Assembly: GCA_964499705.1 (NCBI GenBank)
Contig: CAZCME010000002.1
Location: 434,001 to 482,048, forward strand
Length of the DNA: 48,048 nt
Source: an uncultured bacterium
GTDB lineage: Bacteria > UBA8481
Reading direction: 5' to 3'
This document shows, piece after piece, positions 106 through 4,790 of this stretch; positions within the stretch are counted from its first letter, which is position 1; the number at the start of each line of letters is the position of its first letter. A program made the translations under genes and the position numbers. Below the pieces are notes generated by a model that saw only the letters and a program-made list of their open reading frames with translations, made no database searches and had not been told where the DNA came from.

Positions 106-1503
106 TCAGCGATAATCCCCCAGAGAATAGCCGCAGAACGGCCGGAGGCAATATCCTTTCTGCTGGTGGCTGATGCAATTGTGGTCGAGGTGCTGATCCA
201 GACCCGTCCAGATCTGGCCGGCGAAGAGACGGATGTAGAAATCGGCGCGCGTCGTGGCGTCGTATTTCTGCCAGCCCCCTTCCCAACCGTAAGGACGCTC
301 GAACTTGGACCGGACCAGGCCCGCGATGTGCTTCGGGTGCCAGCCGATGCCCATCAGGGTGCGGGTGAGCGCCTGGAGATTGGTGGGCTTCAGGAGATGC
401 GGATTCGGCTGCTGCAGGGCGAAGGCCACGCAGGGAGGAATCGTGCGGAGATCGAACTTATCGTAGGTGCGGGGCCACACGTTCCAGGGATCGTGCTCGG
501 TGGAATCGAAGTAGCGGTGAAATTCGAAGAGCCTGCTCTTGCGGTATTCGTCGATGAGGTTCAGGAATCCGGCGTTGGCGCTCGGGATCTTCATCGGCCC
601 GCTCGCGGCCGCCCATTCTGATGTCAGCTGAAAGTGCCGGCGCATCTCCAGCCGGTCCTTCAGGGACAGTTCACCCGTCGGAATACAGGTCTGCACGGGA
701 ATGTTCCGGGCGATCTCATCGCCGACCTTGTGTCGCATCACCTTGTGTTTCTGATGCGTGGAAAATGCGGTGCGGACATCGCGCATGTGGATGGGATCTC
801 CGTACATGGAGAGGTCCACGGAGATCGCTTCGCGGCCCCGCTTGGAACGGCCTACGGCCACATCCGTCGTGACGATGGGAATGGAGGACTGGCTGCACGC
901 GTCGCGGATCGCGTCCTGGGAGAGGAATTCCATCAGACGCCCCATCGCGTCGAAGGACTGGCCGTGCGATCGGGAGACGGGGCGCGACCTGCGGCCCTTG
1001 GGATGAGCGTATTTTCCCGCGACCGAGTCGTTGACGCGCCCGAGAGAAATCAGCTCCGCGTCCGCTGCGGAATTGCGGACCACGCGAGTCGTGAAGTGGT
1101 ATCCTTGGCCCGTCATGATCTCCACGAAGGGGATCTCATACCGCTGGAAGGCGCTCTTCAGCGCATACCGGATCGGCTCGATGAGCTCAAAGCAGCGCCC
1201 CGGATTGAGATACGTTTCACCGCCGAAATCCATGTTGAAGTATTCGATGTCGATGATGCCAAGTGTGGATGCGCGGTCCCAGTTGGAGCGGAAGATATCG
1301 AGCCCCTTGTCGAGAATCCAGTGGAAGTCGGATTTGCTGACGGACTCGTATTCGGAAGGTTTGCCGTCCCAGACGAGCGATTCGCCGTAACCGACGAGGT
1401 ATTCCGCCGTGAATTGGTCCGGCTGGTCCGCTGTCCCGCCGCAATATTCGGCGATGCGGTTCCGGACGTCGCTGTTCTGGTAGTATTCCACCTGGTTTAA
1501 CAC
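106..1503 (-). CDS. Putative archaeo-eukaryotic primase-like protein: AEP catalytic domain fused to a PriL-like 4-Cys (Fe-S) C-terminal domain
   Basis: Likely GTG start at 1503 with AAGGA upstream; the longer ORF start at 1827 overlaps the divergent gene. Motifs: IIDIEY (motif I, DxE), MTGQGYH (motif II), VDLSMY and RDVRTAFSTHQK (motif III region), then IPPC ... HNC-x8-C-x4-C at the C-terminus. Confidence 0.65.
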   Translation of the reverse strand: MLNQVEYYQNSDVRNRIAEYCGGTADQPDQFTAEYLVGYGESLVWDGKPSEYESVSKSDFHWILDKGLDIFRSNWDRASTLGIIDIEYFNMDFGGETYLNPGRCFELIEPIRYALKSAFQRYEIPFVEIMTGQGYHFTTRVVRNSAADAELISLGRVNDSVAGKYAHPKGRRSRPVSRSHGQSFDAMGRLMEFLSQDAIRDACSQSSIPIVTTDVAVGRSKRGREAISVDLSMYGDPIHMRDVRTAFSTHQKHKVMRHKVGDEIARNIPVQTCIPTGELSLKDRLEMRRHFQLTSEWAAASGPMKIPSANAGFLNLIDEYRKSRLFEFHRYFDSTEHDPWNVWPRTYDKFDLRTIPPCVAFALQQPNPHLLKPTNLQALTRTLMGIGWHPKHIAGLVRSKFERPYGWEGGWQKYDATTRADFYIRLFAGQIWTGLDQHLDHNCISHQQKGYCLRPFCGYSLGDYR

Positions 1504-1585
1504 GTGTTCAGTTTCATCCTTGCGCCATGGAGCGTCAAGCGAATTGGAGCGAAACGGAGGGACGAATGGAATACGCTGAGAGGAA

Positions 1586-2317
1586 ATGTCCGCTGAAGTG
1601 ATGAATGTTCTCGATGATTTTTTCAAGGCGAGGCGCGACGTTCCGTGTCGCCTGGCATTTTCCGGTGGAACCGACAGCACGATGCTCGCCCTTGCCGCGG
1701 GCACTTCATGCAGATTGTTCGTCCTGGCGACCGATCGGGGCGGCCGCGATCTCGCGGGATGCAGACGCACCGCGGAACTGATGGGGCTCGCCTGTGACGC
1801 GGTTGTCGTGACGCTTCCGGACATCATCGTCCTGATCGAGTCGCATCGCGAAATCCTTTCTGGATTGCAGGATTACACGCAGAGAATCCTCGCGGTCTGC
1901 GAGCTGTTCCTCTGCCGCGAGGCGTTTCGGACTGGAAGTAAGCTGGTGGCAGGACATGGCCCGGAGGCGATCTTCGGAGGATTCCGCCGCCGCGCGGCAC
2001 CTTCGTTAGATGAGCTCGATGAAATATCGCGCGAATCGAACGTCAACGCCGCGCGATTGCGGATCGTGGCGCGGGAATCGGGCTGCGAGATCCTTCTTCC
2101 CTTCTTCGAATCGGATGTGTGGAACTCTCTGCTGGATGCGCGACGGAAGGGACTCGATCGGGTCGGCATGGTACGCGGCCGATTGCCGGATTACCAGCCG
2201 TTGCAGCAGAAAGCGGCTCTGCAGAACGGTTCGGGCATCCATTACCTCTTCGCGCGGGAAGCGCGGCGCCGGAAATTTTCCTATGTCCGCGACTTCATGG
2301 AGGAACTCATCAGGTGA
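1586..2317 (+). CDS. Asparagine-synthase-like N-type ATP pyrophosphatase (synthetase domain only, no glutaminase domain)
   Basis: PP-loop AFSGGTDS; GHGPEAIFGG resembles G-x-G-A-D-E-x-F-G-G; LLPFF; KAALQNGSGI resembles the K-x-A-x-Q-x-G-S-G of short AsnB-like proteins. GAGG lies upstream of the ATG. Confidence 0.75.
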   Translation: MSAEVMNVLDDFFKARRDVPCRLAFSGGTDSTMLALAAGTSCRLFVLATDRGGRDLAGCRRTAELMGLACDAVVVTLPDIIVLIESHREILSGLQDYTQRILAVCELFLCREAFRTGSKLVAGHGPEAIFGGFRRRAAPSLDELDEISRESNVNAARLRIVARESGCEILLPFFESDVWNSLLDARRKGLDRVGMVRGRLPDYQPLQQKAALQNGSGIHYLFAREARRRKFSYVRDFMEELIR

Positions 2318-3666
2318 GGCCGTCATCGGGCGTCACGCCCGTCACGATCTTCACGCAACCATACGCCTGCGGCGGAAACTGCCTCTTCTGTCCGACCGTT
2401 CCCGAGATCCCGAAAAGTTATCTCCCGCATTCCGACGTCCGGAAGAAAGGTCTATCGCACGATGCGGCCGGCCAGATGCGGCATTGGCTTTCCTTCATCG
2501 AATCCAGAGGCGGCATCGCGCGCAAGATCGAAGTCGTTGTGCTCGGAGGTTCGTTCACGGCTCATCCTCCGGAATACCAGCGCGAATTCCTGCGGGGAAT
2601 TTATCGGGGAGTTGACGGCGGCGAAGACGCGGGAGACCTCGAAGCATGCGTCGAGCGGCATGCCGCTGGATCGGGACGAAGAATCATCGGGATCACGGTC
2701 GAGACGAGACCGGACCTCGTGACGAGAGAGAGCATCGAGGCCTTGTTTGCGGCGGGGGTGACGAAGATCGAGCTGGGCGTCCAGAGCCTCGATGATGATG
2801 TTCTGGCGTTCAACGAGCGCGGCCACGGCGCCGCCGAGACGGCGCGAGCAACGGCGCTCATACGCGGATTCGGCCTGAAGGTCGGCTACCATGTGATGCT
2901 CGGACTGCCGGGATCGTCGACCGATACTGATCTCCGCACGATGTCGTCCGTTCTGCACGATCCGCTTCATTGTCCGGATCATCTCAAGATCTACTTCTGC
3001 GAAATGTTCCGCCGCGAGTTCATGCGGGACAGGCTTGTGATTCTCTATGATTCCGGGCAATGGTCTCCCCTCTCCTTGGAACAGAGACGAACGCTATTGC
3101 GGAACATACTGCCGAAAATCCCCGGATTCATGCGCGTCTCCCGGATCGGCCGCCAGACGAAGGAAGAGGAGATTGAAGGCATGCGGGTACGGACAGCCAA
3201 CGTGGAGGAGGAATTCGGCTGCCGTTGCATACGATGCCGGGAACCAAGGCCGACCGATCCGCTGACGGAAGGCTTTACGATCCGGGAGACGATCGTAACG
3301 GAGAATGAACTCTTCCTCGAAGCGCGGCCACGGAGCGACGACGCATCCGGATCATGGCGGGATGATGCTTGTCTTGGCGTGTTGCGTCTCCACCATGAAA
3401 ATGGAATTGCGACGGTGAGAGAGCTGCATGTCTACGGCGAGGAGTCGCCGCCCGGAAAGGCGGGACGTCACCAGCATCGAGGCGTAGGCCGCGCGCTCAT
3501 GGCGCATGTGGAATTCCGCTCCCGCGCTCATGGCATCGGGCTTATGAAAGTCTGCTGTGGAGTCGGCGTGCGTTCCTATTTTGAAAAGCTGGGATTTGCG
3601 ATCGGAAGAGGAGGATTCGCTTGCCGCAAAGTTGAACCGAAATGCACGGAAGAGCGGACGCCATGA
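2314..3666 (+). CDS. elp3: Elp3-family tRNA uridine(34) acetyltransferase/carboxymethyltransferase (radical SAM plus GNAT/KAT)
   Basis: GTG start overlaps the upstream TGA (GTGA), with GGAGGA upstream. SGVTPVTIFT..CGGNCLFCP..PKSY, GITVETRPD, ELGVQS, CRCIRCRE, VRELHVYG, QHRGVGRALM and GVGVRSYFEKLGF are all Elp3 signatures. Confidence 0.9.
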   Translation: MRPSSGVTPVTIFTQPYACGGNCLFCPTVPEIPKSYLPHSDVRKKGLSHDAAGQMRHWLSFIESRGGIARKIEVVVLGGSFTAHPPEYQREFLRGIYRGVDGGEDAGDLEACVERHAAGSGRRIIGITVETRPDLVTRESIEALFAAGVTKIELGVQSLDDDVLAFNERGHGAAETARATALIRGFGLKVGYHVMLGLPGSSTDTDLRTMSSVLHDPLHCPDHLKIYFCEMFRREFMRDRLVILYDSGQWSPLSLEQRRTLLRNILPKIPGFMRVSRIGRQTKEEEIEGMRVRTANVEEEFGCRCIRCREPRPTDPLTEGFTIRETIVTENELFLEARPRSDDASGSWRDDACLGVLRLHHENGIATVRELHVYGEESPPGKAGRHQHRGVGRALMAHVEFRSRAHGIGLMKVCCGVGVRSYFEKLGFAIGRGGFACRKVEPKCTEERTP

Positions 3667-4790
3667 AGCGACTTCTCCTTTGCGCTTTCCTCTCGCATGG
3701 AGCATTCACGCTGGTTTCCGCATCGCCGGTTGCGGCGGATACGCCCGCCGCGATCCATAGCGCGACCGAATTTCTTATCTCCAGCGCAGCTCCGGCGCAC
3801 ATGGACACAGCCACCTCCGGAGTTTATACCCGCATGCAGGCTCTCCCCGGCGTGTTGATCGGATCGGGTTATCACGAGCATATCGGTCCGAACGGACACT
3901 GGCGGCTCGGCTATCCGATGGCGATGGAGGAATGGGGAGCGCGATTCGGATCGTTGCCGGCGTGTTTCGAGTTCGAACTCGGGGAGCATCGCAGGAAGGC
4001 GTGCGAACGCGATTGGTTCTCGGCGCGGATCTTCGCGCGTCAGGGCGGCCTCCCCGTTTTCGCGTTGGTGATGAACAACATGTCCGTCCCCTTTGAGCTT
4101 CATCAATCGGGCAGCGCATGGGACCGACGCAACGGCCTTTTTCCAGTTCTCCCGGGAGGAGACGCTCACGATTCCTTCGTGCGCTATATCAGAACGCTTG
4201 CCGGGGAGTTTCGCGCGTTTGGACACCCATGCCTCTTCAGGCCGTTTCATGAGATGAACGGGACATGGTTCTGGTGGTGCGGCAATCCGGATGGTTATCG
4301 CGTTCTATGGTGGAAGATATTCGACATTTTCCGGCAGGAAGGCATCCGCAACGTGATCTGGTGCTGGAATCCCGACTGGGGGCGAACGTTGCCGGGCGGA
4401 ATCGAATCCTCGATCGATTATTATCCCGGCGACACCTATGTCGATGTTCTGGCCGCGGATATCTACTGCAACGAATCCGTATTTCCTTCATACGGCGAGG
4501 AAGTTGTTCGATTTCTCAACGGTATTGCTCCGACCAAACCGATTTTCCTCGGAGAATTCGGTCCCGTCGCGCGCGCGGATTTCTGGGGATCCTTTCCCGA
4601 CCGGATCCGGTTGCTGCCGCGGATCAGGGGCATCATGCTCTGGATGGGCCGCGGATGGGATTCCTGGGGGAGCGATCCTGAAAGAGGTTCGCTCATCGAC
4701 GAGACGACGCCCGATGATATTCGCGAGGCTTTCCGGAATTTCCTCGATGCGGATTCGAGCATCACTCTGGATGAATGGACGCATCGATGA
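3663..4790 (+). CDS. Secreted glycoside hydrolase family 26 (beta-mannanase-like)
   Basis: ATGA overlap with the elp3 stop; signal peptide MKRLLLCAFL..; FRPFHEMNGTWFWW (acid/base Glu), YYPGDTYVDVLAADIY, KPIFLGEFG (nucleophile Glu). Confidence 0.85.
   Translation: MKRLLLCAFLSHGAFTLVSASPVAADTPAAIHSATEFLISSAAPAHMDTATSGVYTRMQALPGVLIGSGYHEHIGPNGHWRLGYPMAMEEWGARFGSLPACFEFELGEHRRKACERDWFSARIFARQGGLPVFALVMNNMSVPFELHQSGSAWDRRNGLFPVLPGGDAHDSFVRYIRTLAGEFRAFGHPCLFRPFHEMNGTWFWWCGNPDGYRVLWWKIFDIFRQEGIRNVIWCWNPDWGRTLPGGIESSIDYYPGDTYVDVLAADIYCNESVFPSYGEEVVRFLNGIAPTKPIFLGEFGPVARADFWGSFPDRIRLLPRIRGIMLWMGRGWDSWGSDPERGSLIDETTPDDIREAFRNFLDADSSITLDEWTHR

What the first reader, a model, noticed from the sequence alone, without database searches (positions are those of the whole stretch)
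1586..3666. Glutaminase-less AsnB-like amidase coupled to Elp3: candidate cm5U to ncm5U tRNA amidation system
Seen: the PP-loop gene ends in GTGA, which is also the Elp3 start, with a GGAGGA RBS inside the upstream gene. The protein has only the synthetase (adenylation) domain. Established: Elp3 puts a carboxymethyl group on wobble U34 (cm5U), and Asn-synthetase domains adenylate a carboxylate and amidate it with NH3. To my knowledge the enzyme that makes the amide ncm5U has not been clearly assigned. Inference: this pair could be a two-step U34 pathway (U to cm5U to ncm5U), supplying exactly that chemistry.
Basis: partly seen in the sequence, partly recalled or inferred. Interest (0 to 1): 0.8.

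Follow-up and report, generated by a model that had tools for sequence, protein, structure and literature searches.

The report
Elp3-coupled amidoligase, candidate ncm5U maker
A small ATP-using enzyme of the asparagine-synthetase type is welded to the tRNA-modifying enzyme Elp3 in a little-known bacterial phylum, sitting where other Elp3-bearing bacteria keep a methyltransferase, which makes it a testable candidate for the long-missing enzyme that turns the tRNA base cm5U into its amide ncm5U.

Summary
Window 1586-2317 (+) encodes a 243-aa protein ("A") that is only the synthetase half of an AsnB-type enzyme. Its stop overlaps the GTG start of a 450-aa bacterial Elp3 (2314-3666).

What supports a working pair:
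- The two genes lie next to each other with an RTGA stop/start overlap in 5 of 5 genomes of this small phylum. Nothing else in the five neighbourhoods is shared.
- These genomes gave no MnmG or MnmE match over the family cut-offs but have MnmA, so Elp3 is probably their only route to C5-modified wobble uridine.
- In 8 of 8 other Elp3-bearing bacteria found among 396 sampled, Elp3 lies beside, or in one case about 0.8 kb from, a Trm9-like methyltransferase. That enzyme type works on the cm5U carboxylate.
- None of those 8 has A, and none of the 5 has that methyltransferase.
- A keeps the adenylation residues but only 1 of the 4 acidic residues with which asparagine synthetase holds aspartate's amino group.

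Best reading (about 0.5): A adenylates the cm5U34 carboxylate and amidates it with free ammonia. No experiment exists, and all five genomes are kin. The family was not found outside this phylum. I found no paper making this link.

The parts
1586..2317 (+). Gene A: stand-alone AsnB-type synthetase (PP-loop) domain protein, 243 aa, no glutaminase domain
   Evidence: ORF. Pfam PF00733 35.3 bits. AF2 model pLDDT 96. Foldseek best match 1ct9 AsnB, E 7.4e-10, TMq 0.68-0.70. Orthologues at 36-46% identity in the other four genomes of the phylum.
1661..1678 (+). PP-loop SGGTDS (residues 26-31), the ATP pyrophosphatase signature
   Evidence: Read from the sequence. S26, G28 and S31 are invariant and G27 and D30 nearly invariant across 39 family and second-tier sequences.
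1949..1969 (+). T122-G-H124-G-P-E127-A128, aligned to the S-G-E-G-S-D-E segment of AsnB/ASNS; His replaces the catalytic Glu
   Evidence: Alignment of the A2 profile to 1ct9 and human ASNS chains. G123, H124, G125, P126 and E127 are invariant in the 12-sequence family alignment. [quoted passage not shown]
2210..2212 (+). K209, aligned to the catalytic lysine of AsnB/ASNS (E. coli chain position 449, human Lys-466)
   Evidence: Invariant in all 39 sequences. Aligned to the final K of 'RQK' at chain position 449 of 1ct9. Lys-466 is described as essential in PMC6748925 (passage).
2298..2303 (+). GGAGGA Shine-Dalgarno-like site inside gene A, 10 nt before the Elp3 start
   Evidence: Sequence. A purine-rich site is visible in 3 of the 5 genomes at this spot (G000, G001, G004) and not in G002 or G003.
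2314..2317 (+). GTGA stop/start overlap coupling gene A to Elp3
   Evidence: Sequence. RTGA overlap in 5 of 5 genomes.
2314..3666 (+). Elp3: radical SAM + GNAT tRNA U34 carboxymethyl-forming enzyme, short bacterial type, 450 aa
   Evidence: Pfam Radical_SAM and GNAT hits. TIGR01211 252 bits, below the 350 cut-off. PDB 5l7j E 4.5e-71 over residues 2-439. The only strong Elp3 match in the genome.
2368..2391 (+). Radical SAM cysteine motif C19-x3-C23-x2-C26 of Elp3
   Evidence: Sequence. C19, C23 and C26 are invariant in 40 Elp3 sequences.
3472..3489 (+). Q387-H-R-G390-V-G392 of the GNAT domain (acetyl-CoA site; the motif name is recalled)
   Evidence: Q387 and G392 invariant, H388 and G390 nearly invariant. 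Aligned to QHRGLGR of 5l7j.

Best explanation
Gene A and Elp3 form a two-gene, translationally coupled operon for a two-step modification of the wobble uridine (U34) of tRNA.

Step 1 (established for Elp3 in general, inferred here by homology): Elp3 uses SAM and acetyl-CoA to put a carboxymethyl group on C5 of U34, giving cm5U.

Step 2 (inferred): A binds ATP at its PP-loop and adenylates the cm5 carboxylate. Free ammonia then displaces AMP, because A has no glutaminase domain. The product is the neutral amide ncm5U. On tRNAs that MnmA also thiolates, it would be ncm5s2U.

In this phylum A does the job that a Trm9-type methyltransferase does beside Elp3 elsewhere. Both remove the negative charge of the cm5U carboxylate, one by amidation and the other by methyl esterification.
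For: 1. Genetic coupling. A and Elp3 are adjacent and co-directional with an RTGA stop/start overlap in 5 of 5 genomes of the phylum. In G003 the pair is split by a contig break, and A's C-terminal 69 profile positions lie directly upstream of Elp3. The proteins have diverged to 36-46% (A) and 47-56% (Elp3) identity. No other ORF is shared between the five neighbourhoods.

2. Elp3 looks functional. The radical SAM cysteines, the three-cysteine cluster (C303, C305, C308) and the GNAT motif are conserved, and it aligns full length to a solved Elp3.

3. Elp3 is probably the only C5 route here. MnmG is over its cut-off in 0 of 5 genomes and MnmE in 0 of 5 (for MnmE only GTPase-domain hits appear). 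MnmA is over its cut-off in 5 of 5.

4. Complementary partners. Of 396 other bacterial genomes, 8 have Elp3. All 8 have a class I methyltransferase of about 240-260 aa placed head to head with Elp3. It is adjacent in 7, and about 0.8 kb away with one ORF between in G317. This methyltransferase aligns nearly full length with the solved chain 5cm2_Z, 'tRNA methyltransferase' (E 1.2e-12 and 1.5e-16), which I recall to be Trm9. None of the 8 has an A orthologue; the best hit is 24.6 bits and lies elsewhere. None of the 5 has a full-length match to the methyltransferase profile: at most 65.5 bits, mostly the SAM-binding part, against 165-317 bits in the five Elp3-bearing genomes searched with that profile.

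5. Chemistry.
- A keeps the adenylation core: the PP-loop, D55, T98/R100, E127 and K209.
[quoted passage not shown] The four positions read H124, E127, A128 and N154.
- G000 also has six full-length AsnB-type genes, so A is not needed for asparagine synthesis.

6. The enzyme that makes ncm5U is described as unknown in passages of PMC6367351 and PMC7694415.
Against: - There is no biochemical or tRNA-modification data for these organisms.
- All five genomes belong to one small phylum and are kin, so 5 of 5 is not five independent observations.
- The A family was not found in 396 other bacterial genomes (best 34.3 bits). Linkage therefore cannot be tested in a second lineage.
- Elp3 works without A in every other lineage examined.
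- A is not consistently basic. The median pI of 20 family members is 7.75, range 5.1-9.9, which is not what one expects of a protein that binds tRNA on its own.
- The Glu that is essential in ASNS (E364A and E364Q are inactive) is His in A. The chemistry may therefore differ from simple ammonia-dependent amidation.
- The 'Trm9-like' label of the methyltransferase rests on a moderate PDB match among many generic methyltransferase hits.
Confidence: 0.5

Rival explanations
1. A acts on the Elp3 product but does not stop at the primary amide. It may adenylate twice and dehydrate the amide to the nitrile 5-cyanomethyluridine (cnm5U), as QueC does for preQ0. Or it may couple the cm5 carboxylate to an amine other than ammonia.
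For: The genetic evidence is the same as for the main reading. cnm5U and cnm5s2U exist at U34 in archaea, and their origin is described as unknown (PMC11323500 passages; PMC7694415 passages). His124 in place of the ASNS catalytic Glu suggests altered chemistry. That QueC goes carboxylate to amide to nitrile with ATP and NH3 is recalled knowledge.
Against: A gave no QueC hit in NCBIfam at E <= 0.01 and its fold is AsnB-type. cnm5U is assigned to archaea only in the review passages I read. No candidate amine donor gene is conserved nearby.
Confidence: 0.15
2. A is a PP-loop enzyme with a different substrate that merely shares an operon with Elp3. The substrate could be another tRNA position, a translation factor or a small-molecule carboxylate.
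For: AsnB-family synthetase domains act on varied carboxylates; the best sequence match in the PDB to the narrow family profile is beta-lactam synthetase. Second-tier relatives are fused to the diphthamide synthase domain in 8 of 10 long forms tested, so relatives may serve other translation-linked amidations. A is not consistently basic.
Against: A stop/start overlap kept in 5 of 5 genomes with shuffled flanks argues for fixed stoichiometry with Elp3. The mutually exclusive Trm9-like partner at Elp3 in other bacteria points at the cm5U carboxylate. No other pathway genes are conserved nearby.
Confidence: 0.2
3. A is a catalytically inert or accessory subunit that helps the short Elp3 fold or bind tRNA.
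For: The Elp3 of this clade is short (434-489 aa among its 22 closest clusters) and sits behind a long branch in a quick tree. The ASNS catalytic Glu is replaced.
Against: The PP-loop residues, D55, E127, R157 and K209 are invariant or nearly so across the family, which is hard to explain for an inert protein.
Confidence: 0.07
4. A is an ammonia-dependent asparagine synthetase (Asp to Asn), and its place beside Elp3 has no functional meaning.
For: The only family hits are Pfam Asn_synthase and TIGR01536, the latter far below its cut-off.
Against: A scores 27.8 bits against a cut-off of 267.1 on TIGR01536. It keeps 1 of the 4 acidic residues of the Asp amino-group pocket. The genome has six full-length AsnB-type genes. 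The coupling to Elp3 is conserved.
Confidence: 0.03

Closest known systems
Elp3 plus Trm9(/Trm112): cm5U to mcm5U
   Same: Both are two-step U34 pathways in which a second enzyme caps the carboxylate made by Elp3. Clustering of Elp3 and Trm9 genes is reported for Sulfolobus solfataricus (PMC6144793 passage). Here it is seen in 8 of 8 other Elp3-bearing bacteria.
   Different: The partner here is an ATP-dependent PP-loop amidoligase, not a SAM methyltransferase. It is co-directional and overlaps Elp3, rather than lying head to head. The expected product is an amide, not a methyl ester.
Asparagine synthetase B / human ASNS, synthetase domain
   Same: Fold, PP-loop, Mg/ATP residues and catalytic lysine. 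The mechanism is acyl-adenylate formation followed by attack of ammonia.
   Different: A has no glutaminase domain. It scores 27.8 bits against 267.1 on TIGR01536. It keeps 1 of the 4 acidic residues that bind aspartate's amino group, and the catalytic Glu is His.
Beta-lactam synthetase and carbapenam synthetase
   Same: AsnB homologues that adenylate a carboxylate other than aspartate. Beta-lactam synthetase is the best sequence match in the PDB to the narrow family profile (1jgt, E 1.7e-6), and both are high fold matches.
   Different: Those enzymes keep a dead N-terminal domain (about 500 aa) and close a ring within the molecule. A is 243 aa and has no biosynthetic cluster around it.
QueC (7-cyano-7-deazaguanine synthase)
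   Same: A small stand-alone PP-loop enzyme that uses ATP and free ammonia to turn a carboxylate on a modified base precursor into an amide and then a nitrile (recalled knowledge).
   Different: A gave no QueC family hit. QueC works on a free base, whereas A would work on tRNA.
NH3-dependent NAD synthetase (NadE) and diphthine-ammonia ligase (Dph6)
   Same: Glutaminase-less PP-loop enzymes that amidate a carboxylate with free ammonia. NadE chains are weak sequence and fold matches. Second-tier relatives of A are fused to the Dph6 domain.
   Different: They belong to different subfamilies and have different substrates (nicotinate adenine dinucleotide; diphthine on EF2).

Membership tests
AsnB-type asparagine synthase (Pfam PF00733 / TIGR01536) | Score over the Pfam gathering cut-off for the synthetase domain | tested here: met
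   35.3 bits against 21, residues 15-161.
AsnB-type asparagine synthase (Pfam PF00733 / TIGR01536) | PP-loop SGGxDS and the catalytic lysine | tested here: met
   SGGTDS at residues 26-31. K209 aligns to chain position 449 of 1ct9 and is invariant.
AsnB-type asparagine synthase (Pfam PF00733 / TIGR01536) | Fold of the C-terminal synthetase domain | tested here: met
   Foldseek: 1ct9 E 7.4e-10, TMq 0.68-0.70. Beta-lactam synthetase, carbapenam synthetase and human ASNS follow.
AsnB-type asparagine synthase (Pfam PF00733 / TIGR01536) | N-terminal class II glutaminase domain | tested here: not met
   243 aa and no GATase hit. All 20 close representatives are 183-309 aa long.
AsnB-type asparagine synthase (Pfam PF00733 / TIGR01536) | Equivalog score for a true glutamine-hydrolysing asparagine synthase | tested here: not met
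   TIGR01536: 27.8 bits against a cut-off of 267.1.
AsnB-type asparagine synthase (Pfam PF00733 / TIGR01536) | Acidic pocket for the alpha-amino group of aspartate (human Glu-364, Asp-367, Glu-368, Asp-400) | tested here: not met
   The aligned residues are H124, E127, A128 and N154, so 1 of 4 is acidic. The pocket is defined in PMC6748925 passages.
Elp3 (TIGR01211) | Radical SAM CxxxCxxC motif plus a GNAT domain in one chain | tested here: met
   C19, C23 and C26 are invariant. Pfam gives Radical_SAM at 53.9 bits and Acetyltransf_1 at 22.5 bits.
Elp3 (TIGR01211) | Full-length similarity to a solved Elp3 | tested here: met
   5l7j E 4.5e-71, residues 2-439 against 6-457.
Elp3 (TIGR01211) | Three-cysteine zinc motif of bacterial and archaeal Elp3 | tested here: met
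   C303, C305 and C308 are nearly invariant. The motif is described in a PMC6367351 passage.
Elp3 (TIGR01211) | NCBIfam curated cut-off | tested here: not met
   252 bits against 350. The match starts at model position 61, so the N-terminal extension is missing.
Elp3 (TIGR01211) | cm5U-forming activity on tRNA | not testable with these tools
   Inferred from homology and from MnmG and MnmE giving no match over their cut-offs in 5 of 5 genomes.
QueC nitrile synthase (TIGR00364) | Family profile match | tested here: not met
   No hit for A at E <= 0.01.

The most novel reading that the evidence does not exclude
Stand-alone AsnB-type synthetase proteins of about 250-340 aa are the missing enzymes that work on the cm5U carboxylate. 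That group includes this bacterial family and possibly the large, uncharacterised archaeal clusters that resemble it. On this reading they would make ncm5U, and in euryarchaea perhaps carry on to the nitrile cnm5U, which would fill a gap in the Elp3 pathway.

Leads, not evidence:
- The nearest Atlas clusters are archaeal Asn_synthase-only proteins, commonest in Thermoplasmatota, Bathyarchaeota, Nitrososphaerota and Methanobacteriota.
- ncm5U is reported in Thermoplasma acidophilum tRNALeu(UAG) (PMC6144793 passage).
- Haloferax volcanii lacking trm9 has no cm5U, read by the authors as rapid conversion to something else (PMC6144793 passages).
Probability: 0.2. Interest if true: 0.9.

Novelty: new variant of a known kind. 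Interest (0 to 1): 0.72.

Why it matters
ncm5U and its derivatives sit at the wobble position of many eukaryotic tRNAs and some archaeal ones. The enzyme that forms the amide is described as unknown in the papers I read.

This two-gene cassette is small and clonable, which makes the question testable by experiment. Express Elp3 with and without A, then read the tRNA nucleosides by mass spectrometry.

The work also suggests a pattern in bacteria. Elp3 seems to come with a gene for an enzyme that would cap the cm5U carboxylate, either a methyltransferase or this amidoligase. Elp3-bearing lineages also mostly lack MnmG: it was over its cut-off in 2 of 13 such genomes.

If A works as proposed, it would be the first PP-loop amidoligase known to act on an Elp3 product. 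It would also guide searches for the archaeal and eukaryotic counterparts.

Tried and rejected
- **Complex prediction, Elp3 with A.** No verdict, score 0.00. It says nothing either way.
- **Sequencing runs.** No RNA holder is listed, so co-transcription could not be checked. No reads were laid.
- **Single-sequence phmmer of A against the PDB.** No match. Profiles were needed.
- **A third conserved gene.** The upstream divergent ORF, the downstream GH26 gene and the 548-aa ORF have no counterparts in the relatives' loci, so they are not part of the system.
- **tRNA-binding domains fused to relatives.** Of 20 longer second-tier proteins scanned, 11 carry only glutaminase remnants or no extra domain (10 of 10, 2 of 10... 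that is, P0094 and P0095), and 8 of 10 carry a Dph6 domain. None has THUMP, PUA or a similar domain.
- **Fusion of A with Elp3.** None among 1.84 billion representatives. All 20 strong hits are 183-309 aa long.
- **pI as a sign of tRNA binding.** Inconclusive.
- **DUF7411 (PF24167) in the control genomes as a proxy for archaeal distribution.** It rings in 10 of 14 and is not informative.
- **Collection scans with the A profile.** They returned only 2 loci from genome contigs and 2 from metagenome contigs. L012, L013 and L025 have the same match statistics as loci of G004, G003 and G001, so I did not count them as extra cases. L026 is a 38-residue match with no Elp3.
- **Archaeal gene neighbourhoods.** Not examined.
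- **Tree of Elp3.** Only the quick tree finished. The group of 22 was picked by bit score, so its being one clade is partly built in.
Full report
**What is there**

Window 1586-2317 (+) is an ORF of 243 aa, called A here.
- Its only Pfam hit is Asn_synthase: PF00733, 35.3 bits against a cut-off of 21, residues 15-161.
- In NCBIfam it reaches 27.8 bits on TIGR01536, whose cut-off is 267.1.
- It carries a PP-loop, SGGTDS, encoded at 1661-1678, and has no glutaminase domain.

Its TGA stop (2315-2317) overlaps a GTG at 2314. That GTG opens a 450-aa protein ending at 3666, with Radical_SAM and GNAT hits and 252 bits on the Elp3 model TIGR01211 (cut-off 350). This protein aligns over residues 2-439 with the solved 'ELP3 family' chain 5l7j at E 4.5e-71. 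GGAGGA lies at 2298-2303, 10 nt before the GTG.

**The pair is conserved as a unit**

The window lies in genome G000 (contig C2, 434001-482048). Its GTDB phylum holds only five species genomes, and all five have this Elp3. A public MAG contig that carries the same pair is titled Candidatus Hydrogenedentota (L012).
- In G000, G001, G002 and G004, A lies directly upstream of Elp3 on the same strand.
- In G003, A runs off the end of one contig. Its last 69 profile positions lie at the end of another contig, directly upstream of Elp3.
- All five junctions are four-base stop/start overlaps: GTGA three times and ATGA twice.
- The Shine-Dalgarno-like stretch is visible in three of the five, so the conserved feature is the overlap.
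- An all-against-all comparison of ORFs of at least 100 aa in the five neighbourhoods found only A and Elp3 in common, plus antisense shadows of these two.
- Identity to the window's proteins is 36-46% for A and 47-56% for Elp3. The adjacency has therefore survived long divergence and rearranged flanks.

The five genomes are kin, so this is strong conservation within one lineage, not five independent trials.

**How wide the A family is**

- A word-indexed search of 5.8 billion proteins found 12 proteins.
- An exhaustive profile search of 1.84 billion representatives found 20 at E <= 1e-30 (236-369 bits, lengths 183-309 aa). Scores then fall sharply to 109 bits.
- The family has its own invariant motifs: DYTQRILAVCE, TGHGPE, NxxRL and KxxLQNGSGxHY.
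- In 396 bacterial genomes outside the phylum, the best profile hit was 34.3 bits.
- The second tier (68-109 bits among the listed hits) consists mostly of other short Asn_synthase-only proteins. Two of the ten looked up bear DPANN archaeal names, Micrarchaeota and Woesearchaeota. These score far better than A on the canonical AsnB model: 104-142 bits for the eight short ones that match, against 27.8.

**Elp3 as the U34 route in this phylum**

- The Elp3 keeps the radical SAM cysteines C19, C23 and C26, the cysteines C303, C305 and C308, and the QHRGxG stretch of the GNAT domain.
- MnmG is over its cut-off in 0 of 5 genomes. Only partial hits of 29-42 bits appear in four of them, and none in G000.
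- MnmE is over its cut-off in 0 of 5. Hits cover only the GTPase portion, up to 117 bits against 252.6.
- MnmA is over its cut-off in 5 of 5.
- G000 has 54 predicted tRNAs, including U34 species for Arg, Gln, Glu, Gly, Leu, Lys, Pro, Ser, Thr and Val.

So the usual bacterial xm5U pathway was not found, 2-thiolation is present, and Elp3 is the only candidate I found for modifying C5.

**The comparison that bears most on function**

Among the 396 other bacterial genomes, 8 have an Elp3 at E <= 1e-30. They fall in five families, and their Elp3 ORFs are 529-584 aa long.
- In six of them (G326, G236, G235, G173, G263, G105) the gene head to head with Elp3 encodes a class I SAM methyltransferase of about 237-263 aa (Methyltransf_11/23/25). 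The six align with invariant HHIP, R, W and D...R..H positions.
- A profile of these six found full-length orthologues in the other two. In G164 it scores 165 bits and is adjacent to Elp3. In G317 it scores 170 bits and lies about 0.8 kb upstream, with one ORF of unknown family between.
- That makes 8 of 8.
- The methyltransferase aligns nearly end to end with the solved chain 5cm2_Z, 'tRNA methyltransferase' (E 1.2e-12 for one sequence, 1.5e-16 for the profile). I recall this entry to be Trm9-Trm112. It ranks fifth and third among many generic methyltransferase hits, so 'Trm9-like' is a reasoned label and not a proven membership.
- Clustering of Elp3 and Trm9 genes is reported for Sulfolobus solfataricus (PMC6144793, Introduction passage).

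The two partner types exclude each other.
- None of the 8 has an A orthologue. The best hit is 24.6 bits and is not near Elp3.
- None of the five genomes of this phylum has a full-length match to the methyltransferase profile. The best is 65.5 bits, and the hits mostly cover the SAM-binding part; one of 53.7 bits reaches profile position 214 of 240.

Trm9 methylates the cm5U carboxylate. An AsnB-type synthetase domain adenylates a carboxylate and passes it to ammonia. Two different carboxylate-capping enzymes next to Elp3 in different lineages is what one would expect if A works on cm5U.

MnmG is over its cut-off in only 2 of these 8 genomes. Elp3-bearing bacteria thus mostly lack it: 11 of 13 including this phylum.

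**The active site of A**

The AlphaFold2 model is confident (pLDDT 96, pTM 0.92). Its best PDB matches are E. coli AsnB (E 7.4e-10, TMq 0.68-0.70), beta-lactam synthetase, carbapenam synthetase and human ASNS, followed by LarE and NadE.

A profile of A plus second-tier sequences aligns to 1ct9 at E 5.2e-29. That alignment gives this residue map:

| A residue | Aligned to in AsnB / ASNS |
|---|---|
| SGGTDS | the PP-loop |
| D55 | the conserved Asp after the second strand |
| T98 / R100 | the TTIR stretch |
| T122-G-H124-G-P-E127-A128 | S-G-E-G-S-D-E |
| N154...R157 | D...R |
| K209 | the Lys at chain position 449 of 1ct9 |

Passages of Zhu et al. 2019 (PMC6748925) state four things about human ASNS:
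- Lys-466 is essential.
[quoted passage not shown] - The variants E364A, E364Q and D367A are inactive.

A has H, E, A and N at these four positions, so one acidic residue of four remains, while the adenylation residues are invariant. This fits a carboxylate substrate without an alpha-amino group.

It also means the chemistry may not be a plain copy of ASNS, because the Glu that ASNS needs is a His here. I did not see the supplementary alignment of that paper. The numbering map between human ASNS and E. coli AsnB rests.

G000 also has six full-length AsnB-type genes, in open frames of 585-675 aa. A is therefore not needed to make asparagine.

**Mechanism proposed**

- Shown: gene order, coupling, domain content, conservation, partner exclusivity and the residue pattern.
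- Inferred from established knowledge: Elp3 makes cm5U34 (PMC6367351 and PMC13315578 passages).
- Inferred: A binds ATP, forms cm5U-adenylate on the tRNA, and free ammonia gives ncm5U. MnmA adds the 2-thio group on its own substrates.
- Open: whether A binds tRNA alone or relies on Elp3. The family's pI values are mixed (median 7.75, range 5.1-9.9), while the 22 closest Elp3 clusters have a median pI of 9.1.

**Rivals**

- A further step to the nitrile cnm5U, or use of another amine (0.15).
- Another substrate altogether (0.2).
- An accessory, non-catalytic role (0.07).
- Plain ammonia-dependent asparagine synthesis (0.03).

**Literature**

Formation of ncm5U is called 'a yet unknown mechanism' (PMC6367351, Introduction passage). 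It is attributed to 'an unknown enzyme' (PMC7694415, section 7.7 passage) and called a pathway that 'remains obscure' (PMC6144793). cnm5U arises 'through unknown mechanisms', and it occurs with cnm5s2U at U34 in Thermococcus kodakarensis and Methanocaldococcus jannaschii (PMC11323500 passages).

Four full-text searches looked for a link to an AsnB-type enzyme.

| Search terms | Result |
|---|---|
| Elp3 + asparagine synthetase + ncm5U | 0 papers |
| ncm5U + cm5U + amidation | 4 papers, none on such an enzyme by title or abstract start |
| ncm5U / amidotransferase / asparagine synthase / PP-loop / carbamoylmethyluridine, any two terms | 142 papers, 20 listed, none making the link by title or abstract start |
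| Elp3 + asparagine synthase | 1 paper, on cancer translation |

The library does not hold most subscription-journal papers, so this is not proof that the idea is unpublished.

**The wider, bolder reading**

The protein Atlas lists short Asn_synthase-only clusters as A's nearest neighbours by features and by predicted structure. They are commonest in Thermoplasmatota, Bathyarchaeota, Nitrososphaerota and Methanobacteriota (one cluster of 1330 members), with some in phages. These are leads only.

ncm5U is reported in Thermoplasma acidophilum, and H. volcanii lacking trm9 has no cm5U. This raises the possibility that the archaeal proteins do the same job. I could not inspect archaeal gene neighbourhoods.

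Eight of ten long second-tier proteins are fused to the diphthamide synthase (Dph6) domain. That ties this group loosely to amidation of translation components, but it can also be read as a glutamine-dependent Dph6.

**Verdict**

The finding is real. It is a new variant of a known kind of system: Elp3 plus an enzyme that caps the cm5U carboxylate. It turns a long-standing open question into a simple experiment.

Noticed in passing
L032-L039 (genomes G326, G236, G235, G173, G317, G263, G164, G105): In 8 of 8 other Elp3-bearing bacterial genomes, a Trm9-like class I methyltransferase lies head to head with Elp3. It is adjacent in 7 and about 0.8 kb away in G317. MnmG is over its cut-off in only 2 of these 8.
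   Followed up: yes
window 3663-3666 and 3642-4790 (+): The GH26 glycoside hydrolase gene downstream has an ATG at 3663, followed by a signal-peptide-like MKRLLLCAFLS. That ATG overlaps the Elp3 stop as ATGA (3663-3666), so in G000 a third, unrelated gene may also be translationally coupled. It is not found next to the pair in the other four genomes.
   Followed up: partly
window 106-1827 (-): The divergent upstream ORF has no Pfam or NCBIfam hit. Its longest form (573 aa) would overlap the start of gene A. Atlas leads point to a 462-476 aa hypothetical family of Acidobacteriota and Verrucomicrobiota, so a later start near 1500 is likely, with weaker feature likeness to archaeal primase small-subunit/PriX clusters. 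It is not conserved beside the pair in relatives.
   Followed up: partly
G000 contigs C13, C2, C9, C30 (loci L014-L019): The genome has six full-length AsnB-type genes, in open frames of 585-675 aa, two of them about 4 kb apart on C30. I did not look at their contexts.
   Followed up: no
proteins P0101, P0104, P0108, P0118, P0126, P0134, P0136, P0140 (second-tier relatives, not in the window): Short AsnB-like synthetase domains are fused to a diphthamide synthase (Diphthami_syn_2, Dph6) domain, some with an N-terminal glutaminase domain as well. This is two PP-loop amidating modules in one chain.
   Followed up: partly
G000 whole genome (ARAGORN): One predicted tRNA of unassigned identity has a four-base anticodon call (tgtc). 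It may be a prediction artefact or an odd anticodon loop.
   Followed up: no
window 2314-3666 and Elp3 homologues P0152-P0173: The 22 closest Elp3 clusters are short (434-489 aa) and mostly lack the precomputed Radical_SAM_C (PF16199) hit that nearly all more distant Elp3s carry. In a quick tree they sit behind a long branch (length 0.84, SH-aLRT 99). Several share their longest-contig length with A-family proteins (4946, 8472, 20095, 488802).
   Followed up: partly
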